DNA from: Gekko japonicus
Taxonomy: Eukaryota
NCBI RefSeq assembly: GCF_001447785.1
Contig: NW_015169781.1
Span: 797,212 to 861,211, forward strand
Reading direction: 5' to 3'
Length of the DNA: 64,000 nucleotides
Shown: in pieces, positions 15,001 through 21,000 of the stretch
Layout: each line of letters opens with the position of its first letter
Position numbering within the stretch: the stretch's first letter is position 1
Position numbers: made by a program

Positions 15001-18000
15001 TTGAGTCCAGTGGCACCTCTAAGACCAACAAAATTTTATTCAAGGTATAAGCTTTCATGTGTACACATGTGAATATCTGAAGAAGTGTGCATGCACACAA
15101 AAGCTCATACCTTGAATAAAACTTTTTTTTTTGCATTTTTGTGTGTGCCTATGCCTGGAAGTCATGGGAACCTCTGTTGACTCCTGCTGGGGCGTGCAGG
15201 ACGCTCTGAGAAGTGGCTTGATAGCCTGCCTCTGCCTCCCGACCCTGATATTCCAAGGAGGTCACCTATCCAAAGACTTGCCAGGGTCAGCCCTGCTTAG
15301 CTTCCGAGATCTAATGAGATCAGGTTTGCCTGGGCTATCCAGGTCAGGAAACCTTGAACAAAACTTTGGCCCTTTCCGCACTTGGATCTCATCCCTGGTT
15401 TTATCAGATTTCAACTCAGGACACAATACCTTGCATTTATCCCTGGTTATTTTAGAGGGCCTGGCGGGAGCTGGTCCATGGGGTCGCGAAGAGTCGGACT
15501 CGACTGTGTGACTGAACAACAAACAACACTACATTTATCCCTCTCCAAAATTGCTTGGTGTCTCAGGTTATGCATTCTGCATTGTGAGCTCATTTCCCGG
15601 GTTTGTCCTGAGGTGTCACCGGACTCAAACTTTGTTCTAGTGGTGAATTAAACTGTGGCTACATGGCTGTGTTTCAAATCTTCCCTTTGCTCTGTTAGCC
15701 ATGCTGTTGTCCTGTACATGGCCATTCTAGTCTTGTTCACGTTACAGTGAAAACACGTATATCCTGCATGTACTGGAATACATCTGTCTGTAAGAAAGAG
15801 TTTCACAAAGAAAACCTGGGGACTGGTACATTGATAAATACAGGGTTTAAGTAATAGATTCAGCTGTCTCATAAGAATTACATAAGAACAGAACATAAGA
15901 ATTACTCACATGCCTATAAAGAAAAATCAAGTGTACACTTAACACAGATTGTTCATGTGTTCATTGAAGCTTGTGGACAGAGTTTTTGTGTCTTCTGTAC
16001 CTGTACCATCAAAAATAGGAGTCAACAGTGCAGAGCTGAGAGACAATTTTGGTTGAAGGTTGTCTCTGAAATGGATTCTGACGATCAACTTGGAAGGGGA
16101 TTGCTTGTGTAACCCTGTGATGCCTGAGGACGAAGAAAGTAGAAGGGACGACTGGAGGCTAAGACACCAGGGCTTAATTTGTTGATTGTTCTTCCTCTTC
16201 ATTTCCCCCCAGGTTATCACAAGTTTTCACCCATTCTGGAAACCCCTTTCACTTGTGACTTTGAAGGCAGCACCTGCGGTTGGAAAGATGTGAGCACCTC
16301 AGCTTACCAATGGATCCCACACCAGGCCAGCCTCTCAACCCAGGAGATGGAGCTTCCTTTTGATCATACTTTGGGCACCGATAAGGGTAACTTGTTCTTG
16401 GAGGCATTCACTAAGGATATGACTTGCTTATGCGATCACCCAATAAGCATACAAAAGTCAGTGTTGCAATAGTATCAGCTTTCTTTTCTTTTCTTTTTTA
16501 AAAATCAAATCTCTAACCCCTAGTGGCCAATGTGTGATGGAATTTTGGAATCCAAAAGGAGGATGAACAAGACTTTCTGTGAGTGGGTGGGTTGGTAAAG
16601 ATGCAGTAATCTGCATAATTCCATGTCCAGTAGAAGCACAGTAAAATCTTTCTAAGGAATTGTTTTGGTCTGCATAAATGGTATGACTGGGCTTAAAATT
16701 TTAAAAGTATCACAGCTGAATGACTGGATATATATTTATAAATCCACGGGTCTGTTTAGCAAAGGCACCCTTTCTCTCAGCATTTTTCTTTTTGTTTCTT
16801 TATTTTACAGGTTAATCAGCTGCTTCCTTTTGTTCCTTTCTTTCATAGGCTGATTTTCCCCTGTTGTCTGTAGACCTGTCCATGCCATTTGTGAATCAAT
16901 TTTTTAATGAGTTGTTATGGGGCAAATGGGAAATTAAGTACTGCCATTACTCATTATTTTTTTTTTAAATCTGAATTTTGTAAGAGCATTATAATGATGA
17001 AAAATAAAATGGAAAACTGACAGTGGCTGCACTTGCTGAGTTAAAAGCAGTATCTAATTTCCCTTTAACTCTATAAATGTAGGATAATTAACAGTTGATT
17101 CAGGGATGGTGATCAGCTATAGGAGAGGATAGTTGTGGAGGGGAGAAAGAAGAAAAATTTAACAGGCCTGTAGGCCTGGGAATACGTAATACTACTTTGA
17201 CTGTCCACACCAGACAATCTGGAGCAGCAATTTCTGGTTTATGTTAGAAGAAATCAGACATGAAAAAGACTGGAGGGCAATGGGGAAAACAACTGAATGA
17301 AGCAAGGTGGCAACAACTTTGGGCTCTCTATTAAAACTGTGTGAATGAATGATGGTAGTTCTAGACTAAAGGGCAATCTGGGTCAGATGATTGGCCCATC
17401 TAGCTCAGGACTGGCTATTTTGATTGGCAGGAGCTCTTCAGGGTTTCAAGTAGAGAGAGGCATTCTTGCCCCAACACCTTTTCTCTGAGGTCCTTTAACT
17501 GGCGATGCCAAGGACTGAAGCTGGGATCTTCTGCATACAAAACCTGTGCTCCGCCACCAAGAAACACACACATTCTGTCACTGTGTACAATAGGATGGGG
17601 ATGGGTGGTAAAATTAATTCTCTTTTAGGAGAGCAAAGTTAGCTGTCTGCTGGGGCCCATTTTTCCTAGTGATGTGAGTAAACTTTGGCTGACTGGTATC
17701 CCGGACTGCAGATGTTGAAAGGAAGATCAGTGTCTAACATCTGTCCTCTGACCTCTCTGACCACAGCTTTTGACATTTCCATAGGTTGGTACATGACCAC
17801 CTCGAAGCAGAGAGGGAAGCCTTCTCTCACAGCCAGGCTTGCATCCCCACAAATGCAAGAAGCAGCTGCAACGTGTGAGATCCGAGCTTGGTATCACCTG
17901 TGGAGACCAGGTATGTGGGCACAGCAGGTAATGTTCAAGGGAGCCAGCCATCGGAGCACTTTCTCCCACCGGACAGAGCCAACAGTCTACTTGCAGTGCC

Positions 18001-21000
18001 CCAATCATGACCTGTAATGGATGGTCTCTTTTCATGATTTAGGCAGGCTCTGGTTCTGGTAACTGCTCCACAGCAGGCAGAAAACAAGTATACCAGCTAA
18101 TGAATCAGGAAGTCCCCGGTTTGAATTTTATACCCACCGAGTTACAATCTCTTTGCTTCTACCTGCAATATGGAGATGATAATGCTAACTTTCTTTAGAG
18201 GTGCAACAGCCGTCCCCAGGTGGCATTGGTGCCAGCTGATGAGCTGAAAACTGTCCAAAGGACTCTTCTGACTGCCTTGTCCCTGCAGGACTCAATGAGA
18301 CTCACCAGCCCAGTTTGACAGTGGAGCTGATTCATGCAAATGACATCGTGACGCTATGGCAAAGCCCCCTGAGCAGCGCCTACTCCTGGCGGGAACTGGT
18401 TGCGTACACTGGCCGGGTTCACGGGATGTTTCAGGTACCTGGCAATTGGTGGGCCAGTCTATACTGCCTTCCAGTAGGGCAGCTTGGAGTGGCTCTTGGA
18501 GTGGTGCTGTAGTGTACCTCAGGAATCTGTTGCCTGCGAGAGAATGTACAAAAATCCCTTGTACGGAGTTGGAAATTAATTCTCTTTTAGGAGAGCAAAG
18601 TTAGCTGTCTGCTGGGGCCCATTTTTCCTAGTGATGTGAGTAAACTTTGGCTGACTGGTATCCCGGACTGCAGATGTTGAAAGGAAGATCAGTGTCTAAC
18701 ATCTGTCCTCTGACCACAGCTCTTGACATTTCCATAGGTTGGTACATGACCACCTCGAAGCAGAGAGGGAAGCCTTCTCTCACAGCCAGGCTTGCATCCC
18801 CACAAATGCAAGAAGCAGCTGCAACGTGTGAGATCCGAGCTTGGTATCACCTGTGGAGACCAGGTATGTGGGCACGAGATGTATCCCTTTCTCTGCCCCA
18901 CTGCTTGGTGCTTCTGTTATGGCTTCCTAAGCAGATGCTGTTACATACAATCAGGGCTATTTTTGGGCAGATCACCTGTGGAGACCAGGTATGTGGGCAC
19001 AGCAGGTAATGTTCAAGGGAGCCAGCCATCGGAGCACTTTCTCCCACCGGACAGAGCCAACAGTCTACTTGCAGTGCCCCAATCATGACCTGTAATGGAT
19101 GGTCTCTTTTCATGATTTAGGCAGGCTCTGGTTCTGGTAACTGCTCCACAGCAGGCAGAAAACAAGTATACCAGCTAATGAATCAGGAAGTCCCCGGTTT
19201 GAATTTTATACCCACCGAGTTACAATCTCTTTGCTTCTACCTGCAATATGGAGATGATAATGCTAACTTTCTTTAGAGGTGCAACAGCCGTCCCCAGGTG
19301 GCATTGGTGCCAGCTGATGAGCTGAAAACTGTCCAAATGACTCTTCTGACTGCCTCGTTCCTGCAGGACTCAATGAGACTCACCAGCCCAGTTTGACAGT
19401 GGAGCTGATTCATGCAAATGACATCGTGACGCTATGGCAAAGCCCCCTGAGCAGCGCCTACTCCTGGCGGGAACTGGTTGCGTATACTGGCCGGGTTCAC
19501 GGGATGTTTCAGGTACCTGGCAATTGGTGGGCCAGTCTATACTGCCTTCCAGTAGGGCAGCTTGGAGTGGCTCTTGGAGTGGTGCTGTAGTGTACCTCAG
19601 GAATCTGTTGCCTGCGAGAGAATGTACAAAAATCCCTTGTACGGAGTTGGAGCATGGATCCATCTGGCTCCGTGCTGTCATCCCTCTAGGGTCCTGGGCA
19701 CGAAAAATCTTTCCCAAGACTTGATATTCTTTAATTGGACATGCCAGGGATTGAAACGGGGATCTTCTACATGCACATGAAATTTGGTTATTGTGGCTGT
19801 GGGAGCACATCATGATATGGATGAGCAACACAGAAGCACGCTACGAGAGATGCATCCTGAGTTTCCTGTGTCTTTGCAGATCATCTTCTCTTCAACTCAA
19901 GCCTTCTCTGAGACAGTGGTGGTGGCGCTGGATGATGTGGAGTTCAGAAATTGAGGCCCCCCACGTAAGGCAGAGCTTCCTCCACTTTTTTTCCGTGAAT
20001 GGGTTTGGTGGGAAAAAAGAAAGGCCAGAGTACATTTGCCTGAGTTTCTGGGCAAAACCTCTTGGGGCATTTGAGCATAACAGCCATGTGCTGAATTCCC
20101 CCCAAACACTTCATAACACTGAGGATTACTTGATAGCAAAGTGTGGGTTGTTTCCCTGCTCTTGTCCACCATGTTTGGCTGCTTCTGGAGGGTTATCTCT
20201 GTGTATGTGAAAATGCGGGAAATACCCTGGCCTTCACTCAGAGTCCCAGAGCGGCTTACCAACTCCTTTCCCTTCCCCTCCCCACAACAGACACCCTGTG
20301 AGGTAGGTGGGGCTGAGAGAGCTCTTTTTGAGAACTGTTCTTTCAAGAACAGCTCTTATCAGAACTATGGCTTGCCCAAGGTCATCCAGCAGGTGCAAGT
20401 GGAGGAGTGGGGAATCAAACCCGGTTCTCCCAGATTAGAGTCCGCACACTTTATCAGAACTACGGCTTGCCCAAGGTCATCCAGCAGGTGCAAGTGGAGG
20501 AGTGGGGAATCAAACCCGGTTCTCCCAGATTAGAGTCCGCGCACTTAACCACTACACCAAACTGGGGCAGGGAGGGAACCAGCCATTTTTCATGGCAACT
20601 TCACAGTGTAGTTCTTGCCTGGAAATGGATTTGGAGAGAAACTTGGGGTGGCTAAAGGGCCACCTTAAGGTGGTTTTCCTTCATCCTTGATCCCTCTTTG
20701 AGAAAGAGATAACCCTTTCTCTGCCCCATTGCTTGGTGCTTCTGCTATGGTTTCCTAAGCAGATGCTGTTACATATGAAGTTGCTGGAGAGCCAGTGTAG
20801 TGCAGTGGTTAAGAGCAGCGACTCTAATCTGGAGAACCAGGTTTGGTTTCCCACTCCTCCACATGCAGCCAGCTGGGGGACCTTCAGTCAGTCACAGTTC
20901 TCTCAGAGCTCTCTCAGCCCCACCTTCACAGGGTGTCTGTTGTGGGGAGAGGAAGGGAAGGCGACCGTAAGCCGCTCTGAAACTCCTTCGGGGAGTGGAG

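What the first reader, a model, noticed from the sequence alone, without database searches (positions are those of the whole stretch)
16213..19964. All MAMDC4 lesions cluster in one phase-symmetric module: possible loss of MAM1 by exon skipping
Seen: the stop, the exon 4+5 duplication and the templated insertion all lie in exons 3-6, which encode MAM1. Exon 2 ends in phase 1 and exon 7 starts in phase 1. Skipping exons 3-6 (531 nt, 177 codons) therefore removes MAM1 cleanly, and skipping exons 5-6 (231 nt) is also in frame and avoids the TGA. Inference: this lineage may express a five-MAM endotubin while the MAM1 exons decay. That would be domain loss caught in progress rather than gene death.
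Basis: inference. Interest (0 to 1): 0.75.

Follow-up and report, generated by a model that had tools for sequence, protein, structure and literature searches.

The report
Young lesions in gecko MAMDC4's first MAM
A gecko copy of the gut endosome gene MAMDC4 is complete except for a stop codon and a recent one-kilobase duplication in its first domain, which looks like a freshly disabled gene or an assembly fault rather than shown domain loss.

Summary
The window is gecko, not human. It carries a 29-exon MAMDC4 (endotubin) gene on the + strand, 12398-52296, between PHPT1-like and EDF1-like exons. All 28 introns are ag/gt and all phases chain. The only in-frame stop is TGA at 19952-19954 in exon 6, where 62 of 69 orthologues have Cys. 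A 962-nt unit holding exons 4 and 5 is repeated in tandem, with 5 mismatches in 954 aligned bases. Copy B carries 125 extra intronic bases. Exons 3-6 total 531 nt, and exon 2 ends and exon 7 starts in phase 1.

- Phase 1-1 symmetry holds for every module of this gene.
- Two such lesions fall in one removable module by chance with p about 0.16.
- MAM1 shows no extra amino-acid change (4 of 172 sites against 20 of 631) and no splice-site erosion.
- MAM1 is the best conserved module among relatives.
- The only public model for this species starts inside intron 6, not at an exon 2-to-7 junction.

My reading is a young disabling lesion cluster, meaning a nascent pseudogene or null allele (0.4). Rivals are an assembly artefact (0.3) and exon-skipping rescue (0.15). 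No transcript or read data could be searched.

The parts
12398..12449 (+). MAMDC4 exon 1: ATG and signal-peptide-like stretch MRGSWSLLCLTVLIKLS, ends in phase 1
   Evidence: resembles the gecko orthologue N-termini shown
14625..14732 (+). Exon 2 (108 nt, phase 1 to 1), Cys-rich LDLa-like module; its donor is the start of the proposed skip
   Evidence: Pfam gave no hit for the 35-aa piece
16213..16386 (+). Exon 3 (174 nt, 1 to 1), start of MAM1 with Cys1 and Cys2
   Evidence: Pfam MAM positions 1-39, E = 0.001, below the cut-off as a fragment; 96% identical to Gekko kuhli
17612..18573 (+). Tandem duplication unit A (962 nt), holding exon 4 (17785-17910) and exon 5 (18289-18434)
18574..19651 (+). 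Tandem duplication unit B (1078 nt), holding exon 4' (18738-18863) and exon 5' (19367-19512). Of 954 aligned bases, 5 differ from A; there is a 9-nt indel and 125 extra nt. No N lies between the units
18876..18970 (+). 95-nt segment found only in unit B, in the intron after exon 4'. It is flanked by 30-nt direct repeats at 18846-18875 and 18971-19000, each holding the last 18 nt of exon 4' and its gt donor
   Evidence: 71 nt are 92% identical to 20705-20775; the last 23 nt match 44284-44306 with 2 mismatches
19880..19964 (+). Exon 6 (85 nt, phase 0 to 1), end of MAM1
19952..19954 (+). In-frame TGA at the fourth conserved Cys of MAM1; the only stop in the 29 exons
   Evidence: Cys in 62 of 69 orthologues, 7 not aligned at that column
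19999..20029 (+). ATG and 31 nt in intron 6 that form the start (MGLVGKKKGQ) of the public Gekko japonicus model P0070, spliced to exon 7
20705..20775 (+). Intron 6 stretch that is 92% identical to part of the unit-B segment
21488..21604 (+). Exon 7 (117 nt, 1 to 1), LDL-receptor class A module; its acceptor is the end of the proposed skip
   Evidence: Pfam PF00057, 35.5 bits, above the cut-off
24222..52296 (+). Exons 8-29: MAM2, LDLa, MAM3-6, transmembrane stretch and cytoplasmic tail. All are open, all introns are ag/gt and all phases chain. Exon 29 is 52249-52296
   Evidence: 18 of 29 exon translations are found letter for letter in P0070

Best explanation
This is the MAMDC4 (endotubin, apical endosomal glycoprotein) orthologue of a Gekko species; every exon that can be compared is identical to the public Gekko japonicus model. 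The gene is structurally complete. It carries a young lesion cluster spanning 2.3 kb in the module that encodes MAM1.

The cluster has three parts:
- A 962-nt tandem duplication of exons 4 and 5.
- A 125-nt extra intronic segment in the second copy.
- A TGA at the last Cys of MAM1, 301 nt past the end of the duplication.

The expected consequences are inferred, not shown:
- With all exons spliced in, exon 5 joined to exon 4' shifts the frame and stops after three codons.
- With only one copy of each exon used, translation stops after 226 codons.
- Either way the stop lies far upstream of more than 20 exon junctions, so the mRNA should be a target of nonsense-mediated decay.

I read this as a recently disabled allele. 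It is either a nascent unitary pseudogene or a null allele still segregating. The lesions sit together because they are few, young and physically adjacent, and perhaps arose in one complex event. Selection sparing the rest of the gene is not needed to explain the pattern.
For: Identity of the gene:
- The best hits of exons 3, 20 and 8 are gecko 'apical endosomal glycoprotein' entries.
- 18 of 29 exon translations are letter for letter in P0070.
- Janus/Ocnus (PHPT1-like) and MBF1 (EDF1-like) exons flank the gene.

Lesions:
- The TGA is the only stop in 29 exons and sits at a column that is Cys in 62 of 69 orthologues.
- The duplication adds 272 nt, which is 2 mod 3.
- Exon 4' read in the phase left by exon 5 gives VGT*.

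Youth:
- The copies differ at 5 of 954 aligned bases.
- Amino-acid change on this lineage is no higher than on the Gekko kuhli lineage. It is 4 against 5 of 172 sites in MAM1 and 20 against 16 of 631 sites in exons 7-21.
- Gekko kuhli has Cys at the TGA column and single copies of exons 4 and 5 in its model.

Clustering needs no selection: p = 0.16 for both lesions falling in one removable module.

MAM1 is the best conserved module among relatives, so losing it most likely means losing function.

The public model P0070 avoids exons 1-6.

Inference with assumed ratios: 0.26% neutral change per copy since the duplication predicts only about 1.2 further disabling hits in the other 3063 coding nt. 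No further hit is therefore expected about 3 times in 10.
Against: - More than 60 sauropsid orthologues keep the gene, so dispensability in one gecko is not expected.
- The rest of the gene has no lesion at all. That is what continued selection would also give.
- Whether the lesions are fixed, heterozygous or assembly errors could not be checked, because no reads, other assemblies or transcripts were available.
- If P0070 was built on the same assembly as the window, it is not independent evidence.
Confidence: 0.4

Rival explanations
1. Assembly artefact. The two 'copies' would be the two haplotypes of a locally heterozygous stretch laid in tandem, which is a heterotype false duplication. The TGA would be a consensus error or a heterozygous variant. 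The real gene would then be intact or carry one lesion only.
For: - The copies differ by 0.5% plus a 9-nt and a 125-nt indel. That is the kind of difference seen between divergent alleles, and a large heterozygous indel is what breaks contigs.
- Ko et al. 2022 (PMC9516828; abstract and passages read) report that 4-16% of older vertebrate assemblies is falsely duplicated. These are mostly haplotypes in more divergent regions, 7-24% of them lie on the same scaffold, and they include false exon duplications.
- All the oddities lie within 2.3 kb, as one local assembly problem would give.
Against: - The same paper names gaps between the duplicated pair as a hallmark. Here the junction at 18573/18574 is continuous sequence, and the only N run of the window is at 23857-23890 in intron 7.
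- The extra segment has the orderly form of 95 nt between 30-nt direct repeats.
- A false duplication does not explain the TGA.
- Read depth and k-mers could not be examined.
Confidence: 0.3
2. One reading: domain loss by exon skipping. Exon 2 would be spliced to exon 7. The product would be a protein of about 1020 residues with the signal peptide, both LDLa-type modules, MAM2-6, the membrane span and the tail. Exons 3-6 would be free to decay.
For: - The skip is in frame: 531 nt, phase 1 to phase 1.
- Every lesion lies inside the skipped block, and exons 1-2 and 7-29 are intact with ag/gt introns.
- The joint chance of both lesions falling in MAM1 specifically is 0.017.
- The functions mapped so far lie in the 40-residue cytoplasmic domain (PMC11125477, passages read). 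That domain is intact here in exons 28-29.
- In-frame isoforms lacking a MAM exon are annotated in relatives. Paroedura isoform X2 lacks the counterpart of exon 17, and P0070 lacks exon 13.
Against: - Phase symmetry is shared by all modules, and the fair chance figure is 0.16.
- All six exons to be skipped keep ag/gt sites, so default splicing should include them.
- There is no excess amino-acid change in MAM1.
- MAM1 is the best conserved module among relatives.
- Apart from P0070, no model lacking MAM1 appeared among the 8 hits of the exon 20 search or the 5 hits of the exon 8 search. P0070 starts in intron 6 without a signal peptide.
- The lesions are too young for the intact remainder to count for much.
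Confidence: 0.15
3. Recoding: the TGA would be read as selenocysteine or read through, so MAM1 would be made whole.
For: The TGA sits exactly at a Cys column, which is the usual place for a Sec/Cys exchange.
Against: - No SECIS or other recoding element was found in the whole window at gathering scores.
- None was found in 52200-57000 at E up to 1.
- This Cys is a structural cysteine of an extracellular domain (recalled, not from a call).
- The frameshifting duplication would remain unexplained.
Confidence: 0.01

Closest known systems
MAMDC4 / endotubin / apical endosomal glycoprotein orthologues of other geckos (Heteronotia binoei P0002, Eublepharis macularius P0003, Gekko kuhli P0001)
   Same: - The window's 29-exon layout covers P0002 end to end.
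- The CDS is 3594 nt (1197 codons), against about 1200-residue orthologues.
- MAM and LDLa Pfam domains are present.
- The gene has PHPT1-like and EDF1-like neighbours.
   Different: - There is a TGA where the orthologues have Cys.
- Exons 4 and 5 are present twice.
- Exon 10 has a 2-residue deletion and 7 lineage-specific changes.
Public Gekko japonicus model P0070 (792 aa, 'PREDICTED: apical endosomal glycoprotein')
   Same: Exons 7-12 and 14-25 are identical letter for letter. Its odd first and last coding pieces are also in the window, at 19999-20029 and 46609-46625.
   Different: It omits exons 1-6, 13 and 26-29. It therefore has no signal peptide, no MAM1 and no membrane span. It is a partial automatic model and is not evidence for a five-MAM protein.
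Young unitary pseudogenes and segregating null alleles
   Same: There is a premature stop and a frameshifting structural change in an otherwise intact gene that relatives keep.
   Different: The lesions lie in a single module, there is no sign of relaxed constraint, and fixation is unknown.
Evolutionary exon or module loss in mosaic extracellular proteins built from phase 1-1 modules (exon-shuffling rule; recalled, not from a call)
   Same: The module is bounded by phase-1 introns, so removal is in frame.
   Different: Here the exons and their splice sites are still whole, and no skipped transcript is known.
Heterotype false duplications in assemblies (Ko et al. 2022, PMC9516828; abstract and passages read)
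   Same: The copies are adjacent, near-identical, differ by small variants and indels, and affect exons.
   Different: There is no gap between the copies. Read depth was not testable.

Membership tests
MAMDC4 / endotubin orthologue | Closest relatives are annotated apical endosomal glycoprotein | tested here: met
   Exon 3 search: 69 proteins with E <= 0.001 among 71 candidates; nearly all listed names are apical endosomal glycoprotein, AEGP or MAM domain containing 4, the rest being unnamed or hypothetical MAM proteins; the best hit is 96% identical (Gekko kuhli). Exon 20 and exon 8 searches: the best hit is Gekko japonicus P0070, at 99% and 100%.
MAMDC4 / endotubin orthologue | Repeated MAM domains with LDLa modules, one membrane span and a short cytoplasmic tail | tested here: met
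   Pfam on exons: MAM on exons 3 and 4 (below the cut-off as fragments) and LDLa on exon 7 (above the cut-off). On P0002, 5 MAM stretches and 2 LDLa, and every part of P0002 maps to a window exon. The membrane span and tail were read by eye in exons 28-29. The count of six MAM domains is the usual annotation and is recalled.
MAMDC4 / endotubin orthologue | Conserved neighbours | tested here: met
   Janus/Ocnus exons lie upstream on the + strand and an MBF1 exon lies downstream on the - strand. That PHPT1 and EDF1 flank MAMDC4 in human is recalled.
MAMDC4 / endotubin orthologue | Open reading frame from ATG to stop | tested here: not met
   There is a TGA in exon 6, and exons 4-5 are doubled, adding 272 nt.
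Unitary pseudogene | Disabling lesions in the coding sequence | tested here: met
Unitary pseudogene | Lesions spread over several parts of the gene | tested here: not met
   All lesions lie in exons 4-6. The other 25 exons are clean.
Unitary pseudogene | Relaxed constraint on the lineage | tested here: not met
   Window-specific against kuhli-specific changes are 20 against 16 of 631 sites in exons 7-21, and 4 against 5 of 172 in MAM1. This is at protein level only; no nucleotide sequences of relatives were at hand.
Unitary pseudogene | Lesions fixed in the species; no functional transcript | not testable with these tools
   No reads, population data or transcripts could be searched.
Domain loss by exon skipping | Module bounded by introns of the same phase, with length a multiple of 3 | tested here: met
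   531 nt, phase 1 to 1. The same holds for 7 other modules.
Domain loss by exon skipping | Skipped exons eroding (splice sites, sequence) | tested here: not met
   All six exons keep ag/gt. There is no excess change.
Domain loss by exon skipping | Module dispensable or alternatively spliced in relatives | tested here: not met
   MAM1 has the highest mean identity of the 10 modules, 71.5%. No relative's model lacking MAM1 was found, but those searches returned only 8 and 5 hits, so this is weak evidence.
Domain loss by exon skipping | Exon 2-to-7 junction in transcripts | not testable with these tools
   No transcript collection was available.
False (heterotype) assembly duplication | Adjacent near-identical copies differing by allele-like variants | tested here: met
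   99.5% identity, a 9-nt and a 125-nt indel.
False (heterotype) assembly duplication | Gap between the copies | tested here: not met
   No N lies between 17612 and 19651. The only N run is at 23857-23890.
False (heterotype) assembly duplication | Half read depth, haplotype-specific k-mers | not testable with these tools
   No reads were available.
Selenoprotein | SECIS element in the 3' UTR | tested here: not met
   Rfam found none at gathering scores in the window, and none at E up to 1 in 52200-57000.

The most novel reading that the evidence does not exclude
Gekko japonicus may have begun to discard the most conserved module of endotubin. An exon 2-to-7 isoform would carry the function as a five-MAM protein while exons 3-6, still splice-competent, take their first hits. 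That would be module loss in a mosaic protein caught within roughly the first million years.
Probability: 0.13. Interest if true: 0.6.

Novelty: new member of a known kind. Interest (0 to 1): 0.3.

Why it matters
If the lesions are real, this is a lineage-specific hit to a gene that more than 60 sauropsids keep. Its known roles are in apical endocytosis and enterocyte differentiation in neonatal mammals (PMC5756061 and PMC5112496, starts of abstracts seen). That would say something about how far reptiles need the gene. It would also give a natural test of whether MAM1 is needed.

If the lesions are an artefact, the case is a caution for gene-loss scans, because a 1-kb tandem 'exon duplication' without a gap can mimic a frameshift.

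Either way, the case shows that lesions confined to one phase-symmetric module cannot by themselves tell domain loss from early gene death.

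Tried and rejected
- **Selenocysteine or recoding.** No SECIS was found, so I rejected this.
- **Local templating of the unit-B segment from intron 6.** This is doubtful. The match is 92% over 71 nt, against 99.5% between the duplication units. The last 23 nt match a different intron. Either another repeat copy was the source, or the segment is old and unit A lost it by slippage between the 30-nt repeats. This stays unresolved.
- **Search for relatives' models that lack MAM1.** The exon 20 and exon 8 queries returned only 8 and 5 hits. 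None lacked MAM1 except P0070. This is weak evidence.
- **Literature.**
  - 'MAMDC4' or 'endotubin' gave 126 papers; none of the 25 listed concerns reptiles.
  - 'MAMDC4' with 'pseudogene' gave 9 papers, all mammalian expression or clinical lists by title.
  - A six-term search for MAMDC4 with gecko, squamates, gene loss and exon skipping put no MAMDC4 paper among its 15 listed.
  - I therefore found nothing in print on MAMDC4 loss or MAM1 skipping in squamates in these three searches.
  - A search for phase 1-1 and MAM domain papers and one for Gekko japonicus assembly statistics gave nothing usable.
  - PMC2134826 was searched for four terms with no hits.
- **Rows left out of the relative-rate count.** In one search, the rows for exons 1-2 and 22-29 were not used. 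The Gekko kuhli model does not cover those exons properly there: it reads exon 2 in another frame and ends after exon 21, so the aligner matched other MAM repeats.
- **Not done.**
All searches were exon by exon.
  - No structure prediction or complex prediction was run, because MAM1 of this window can only be had by joining exons.
  - The N run at 23857-23890 was left as it is.
  - Genome contigs holds bacteria and archaea only and was not used.
  - Supplements of papers were not asked for.

Full report
**What the window is.** The window is not human. Exon 3 of the finding is 96% identical to a Gekko kuhli protein and 82-88% identical to 'apical endosomal glycoprotein' of five other geckos. 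That search gave 69 proteins with E <= 0.001 among 71 candidates. Exons 20 and 8 hit the public Gekko japonicus model P0070 at 99% and 100%. Eighteen of the 29 exon translations (exons 7-12 and 14-25) are found letter for letter in P0070. Upstream on the + strand lie two exons of the Janus/Ocnus family (PHPT1-like; 3023-3304 and 3978-4229). Downstream on the - strand lies an MBF1 exon (EDF1-like; 57915-58157). That these genes flank MAMDC4 in human is recalled, not from a call. So this is the MAMDC4 orthologue of Gekko japonicus or a very close relative.

**Gene structure.** I mapped Heteronotia, Gekko kuhli and Gekko japonicus proteins onto the window with tblastn. I fixed each boundary from frame, ag/gt dinucleotides and phase bookkeeping. 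The gene has 29 exons from 12398 to 52296; exon 29 is 52249-52296. The CDS is 3594 nt. All 28 introns are ag/gt, and every exon starts in the phase in which the previous one ends. All searches were made exon by exon, so the split codons were not checked against relatives. The 34-nt N run at 23857-23890 lies in intron 7 and was left alone.

**The observation.** It is confirmed.
- Exons 3-6 are 16213-16386, 17785-17910, 18289-18434 and 19880-19964. Their lengths are 174, 126, 146 and 85 nt, summing to 531. Exons 5+6 are 231 nt and exons 4-6 are 357 nt.
- Exon 2 ends in phase 1 and exon 7 starts in phase 1.
- The only in-frame stop of the gene is TGA at 19952-19954, 10 nt before the exon 6 donor. 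In 62 of 69 orthologues that column is Cys ('EFRNC'). In the other 7 the local alignment did not reach it, and no other residue occurs.
- A 962-nt unit (17612-18573) holding exons 4 and 5 is repeated head to tail (18574-19651). Of 954 aligned bases, 5 differ. There is one 9-nt indel and 125 extra nt in the second unit. The two copies of each exon encode the same residues.
- One correction: the 'templated insertion' is intronic. It is 95 nt (18876-18970) between two copies of a 30-nt stretch made of the last 18 nt of exon 4' and 12 nt of intron.
- Its origin is not clearly local. Seventy-one nt match intron 6 at only 92%, far below the 99.5% between the duplication units. The last 23 nt match intron 23. 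Either a repeat copy elsewhere was the source, or the segment is old and unit A lost it by slippage between the 30-nt repeats.

**Consequences for the message (inferred).**
- If all exons are spliced in, exon 5 (ending in phase 0) meets exon 4' (which needs phase 1). Read in the phase left by exon 5, exon 4' gives VGT and then a stop. The duplication adds 272 nt, which is 2 mod 3.
- If only one copy of each exon is used, translation ends after 226 codons.
- Both stops lie upstream of more than 20 junctions. By the general rule of nonsense-mediated decay (established knowledge), such messages should be degraded.
- Splicing exon 2 to exon 7 would remove 177 codons and leave about 1020.

**Is the clustering meaningful?** Less than it looks, for four reasons.
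- Phase symmetry is not a property of MAM1. Exon 2, exon 7, exons 8-11, exon 12, exons 13-16, exons 17-23 and exons 24-27 are all phase 1-1 blocks whose length is a multiple of 3. This fits the known habit of shuffled extracellular modules (recalled). Almost any lesion in this gene would be 'cleanly skippable'.
- I weighted a random nonsense change by the count of stop-creating single changes per exon. I considered a random 963-nt tandem unit that holds whole exons and shifts the frame. The chance that both fall in MAM1 is 0.017. The chance that both fall in one and the same removable module, whichever it is, is 0.16.
- The lesions are physically adjacent. The TGA lies 301 nt beyond the end of the duplication. 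One complex event or one local assembly problem would also put them together.
- They are young. At 0.52% between copies, each copy has taken about 0.26% change. With my assumed ratios, the other 3063 coding nt would have taken only about 1.2 disabling hits, so none is expected about 3 times in 10. The ratios are about 4% of changes creating stops (taken from the counts), about one indel per 8-10 substitutions (recalled), and the splice dinucleotides as extra targets. The clean remainder of the gene is therefore weak evidence for continued selection.

**Are the MAM1 exons decaying?** No sign of it.
- I polarised differences between the window and Gekko kuhli with five other geckos. MAM1 has 4 window-specific and 5 kuhli-specific changes in 172 comparable sites. 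Exons 7-21 have 20 and 16 in 631, with 3 unpolarised. Fisher p is 0.80 for MAM1 against the rest and 0.71 for the lineage split.
- Exons 1-2 and 22-29 were left out because the Gekko kuhli model does not cover them properly.
- All acceptors and donors of exons 3, 4, 5, 4', 5' and 6 are ag/gt.
- So there is neither module-specific nor gene-wide relaxation at the protein level. The lesions post-date nearly all of the Gekko japonicus-Gekko kuhli divergence. Gekko kuhli's model has Cys at the TGA column and one copy of each exon.

**Is MAM1 dispensable in relatives?** It does not look so. In an alignment of nine full-length sauropsid proteins, MAM1 has the highest mean identity to Heteronotia of the ten modules. 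It scores 71.5%, against 50.9-69.8% for the others.

**The public model.** P0070 (792 aa) begins MGLVGKKKGQ, encoded at 19999-20028 inside intron 6. It continues with exon 7, omits exon 13, and ends after exon 25 with WLPLP. That ending is encoded at 46609-46625 in intron 25. It has no signal peptide and no membrane span. It shows that an automatic annotation avoided exons 1-6. It is not evidence for an exon 2-to-7 transcript. If it was built on the same assembly as the window, it is not independent of it.

**Artefact?** Ko et al. 2022 (PMC9516828; abstract and passages read) describe false duplications of divergent haplotypes, false exon duplications included. They give half read depth and gaps between the copies as hallmarks. 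Here the differences between the copies are allele-like, but there is no gap at the junction. Read depth could not be examined, so I keep this rival at 0.3.

**Recoding?** No SECIS was found in the window or, at E up to 1, in the 3' region.

**Function of the family.** MAMDC4 is a single-pass membrane protein with a large extracellular part and a 40-residue cytoplasmic domain that carries the mapped activities (PMC11125477, passages read). It is tied to the endocytic enterocytes of neonatal mammals (starts of abstracts of PMC5756061 and PMC5112496 in the listing). The tail-encoding exons 28-29 are intact here. What the MAM domains do is not stated in what I read.

**Verdict.** The interpretation cannot be decided with these tools, and what could be tested weakens it.
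- My best reading is a recently disabled allele, a nascent pseudogene or segregating null (0.4).
- An assembly artefact comes next (0.3).
- Exon-skipping rescue follows (0.15).
- Recoding is last (0.01).

**What stayed unchecked.** Transcripts, reads, other individuals and other Gekko genomes stayed unchecked, because no eukaryotic genome, read or transcript collection was available. The closed collections and paper supplements were not used.

Noticed in passing
window 18957-18994: The second copy of the 30-nt repeat is preceded by a pyrimidine-rich run and 'cag', and followed by 'gtatgt'. An 18-nt stretch (18971-18988) therefore has the form of an in-frame micro-exon in phase 1 to 1. This was read by eye only.
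   Followed up: no
window 28408-28560 (exon 10, MAM2): This exon has 7 window-specific amino-acid changes in 51 residues and a 2-residue deletion relative to other geckos. That is more than any MAM1 exon. The stretch also varies among the other geckos.
   Followed up: partly
window 18340-18348 and 19418-19426 (exons 5 and 5'): The window has N-D-I where other geckos have N-G/D-T, so an N-glycosylation sequon of MAM1 is lost on this lineage.
   Followed up: no
window 33979-34080 (exon 13) and 46609-46625: The public Gekko japonicus model P0070 skips exon 13, which is intact here with ag/gt and phase 1 to 1. The model ends in a cryptic piece of intron 25. The reason is unknown.
   Followed up: partly
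window 14623-14682: The Gekko kuhli model P0001 reads exon 2 in a different frame from the other geckos, so its N-terminus is unreliable.
   Followed up: no
window 15233-15352 (-) and 56818-56930 (+): There are two full-length matches to the 5S rRNA model, at 48 and 43 bits. One lies in intron 2. They are probably 5S-derived SINE copies rather than rRNA genes; the SINE reading is recalled.
   Followed up: no
window 20356-20545: A 95-nt unit is repeated in tandem (98% identity) inside a SINE-like stretch of intron 6.
   Followed up: no
window 4623-4946 (+), 52852-53289 (-), 63527-63844 (-); 5641-6126 (-): Three ORF fragments share a near-identical motif (…WTIRKAE.RRIDSFELWCWRR.LRVPWT.RRSNQSILKEINPDCSLEGQI…). 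They look like copies of one retroelement tail. Pfam found nothing in the one tested. A weak reverse-transcriptase match lies at 5641-6126.
   Followed up: partly
window 40071-40281 (exon 20): This single exon carries the end of MAM4 and the start of MAM5. These two domains therefore cannot be removed separately in frame, unlike the other MAM modules.
   Followed up: no
window 3023-4229 (+) and 57915-58157 (-): PHPT1-like (Janus/Ocnus) and EDF1-like (MBF1) exons flank the gene.
   Followed up: partly
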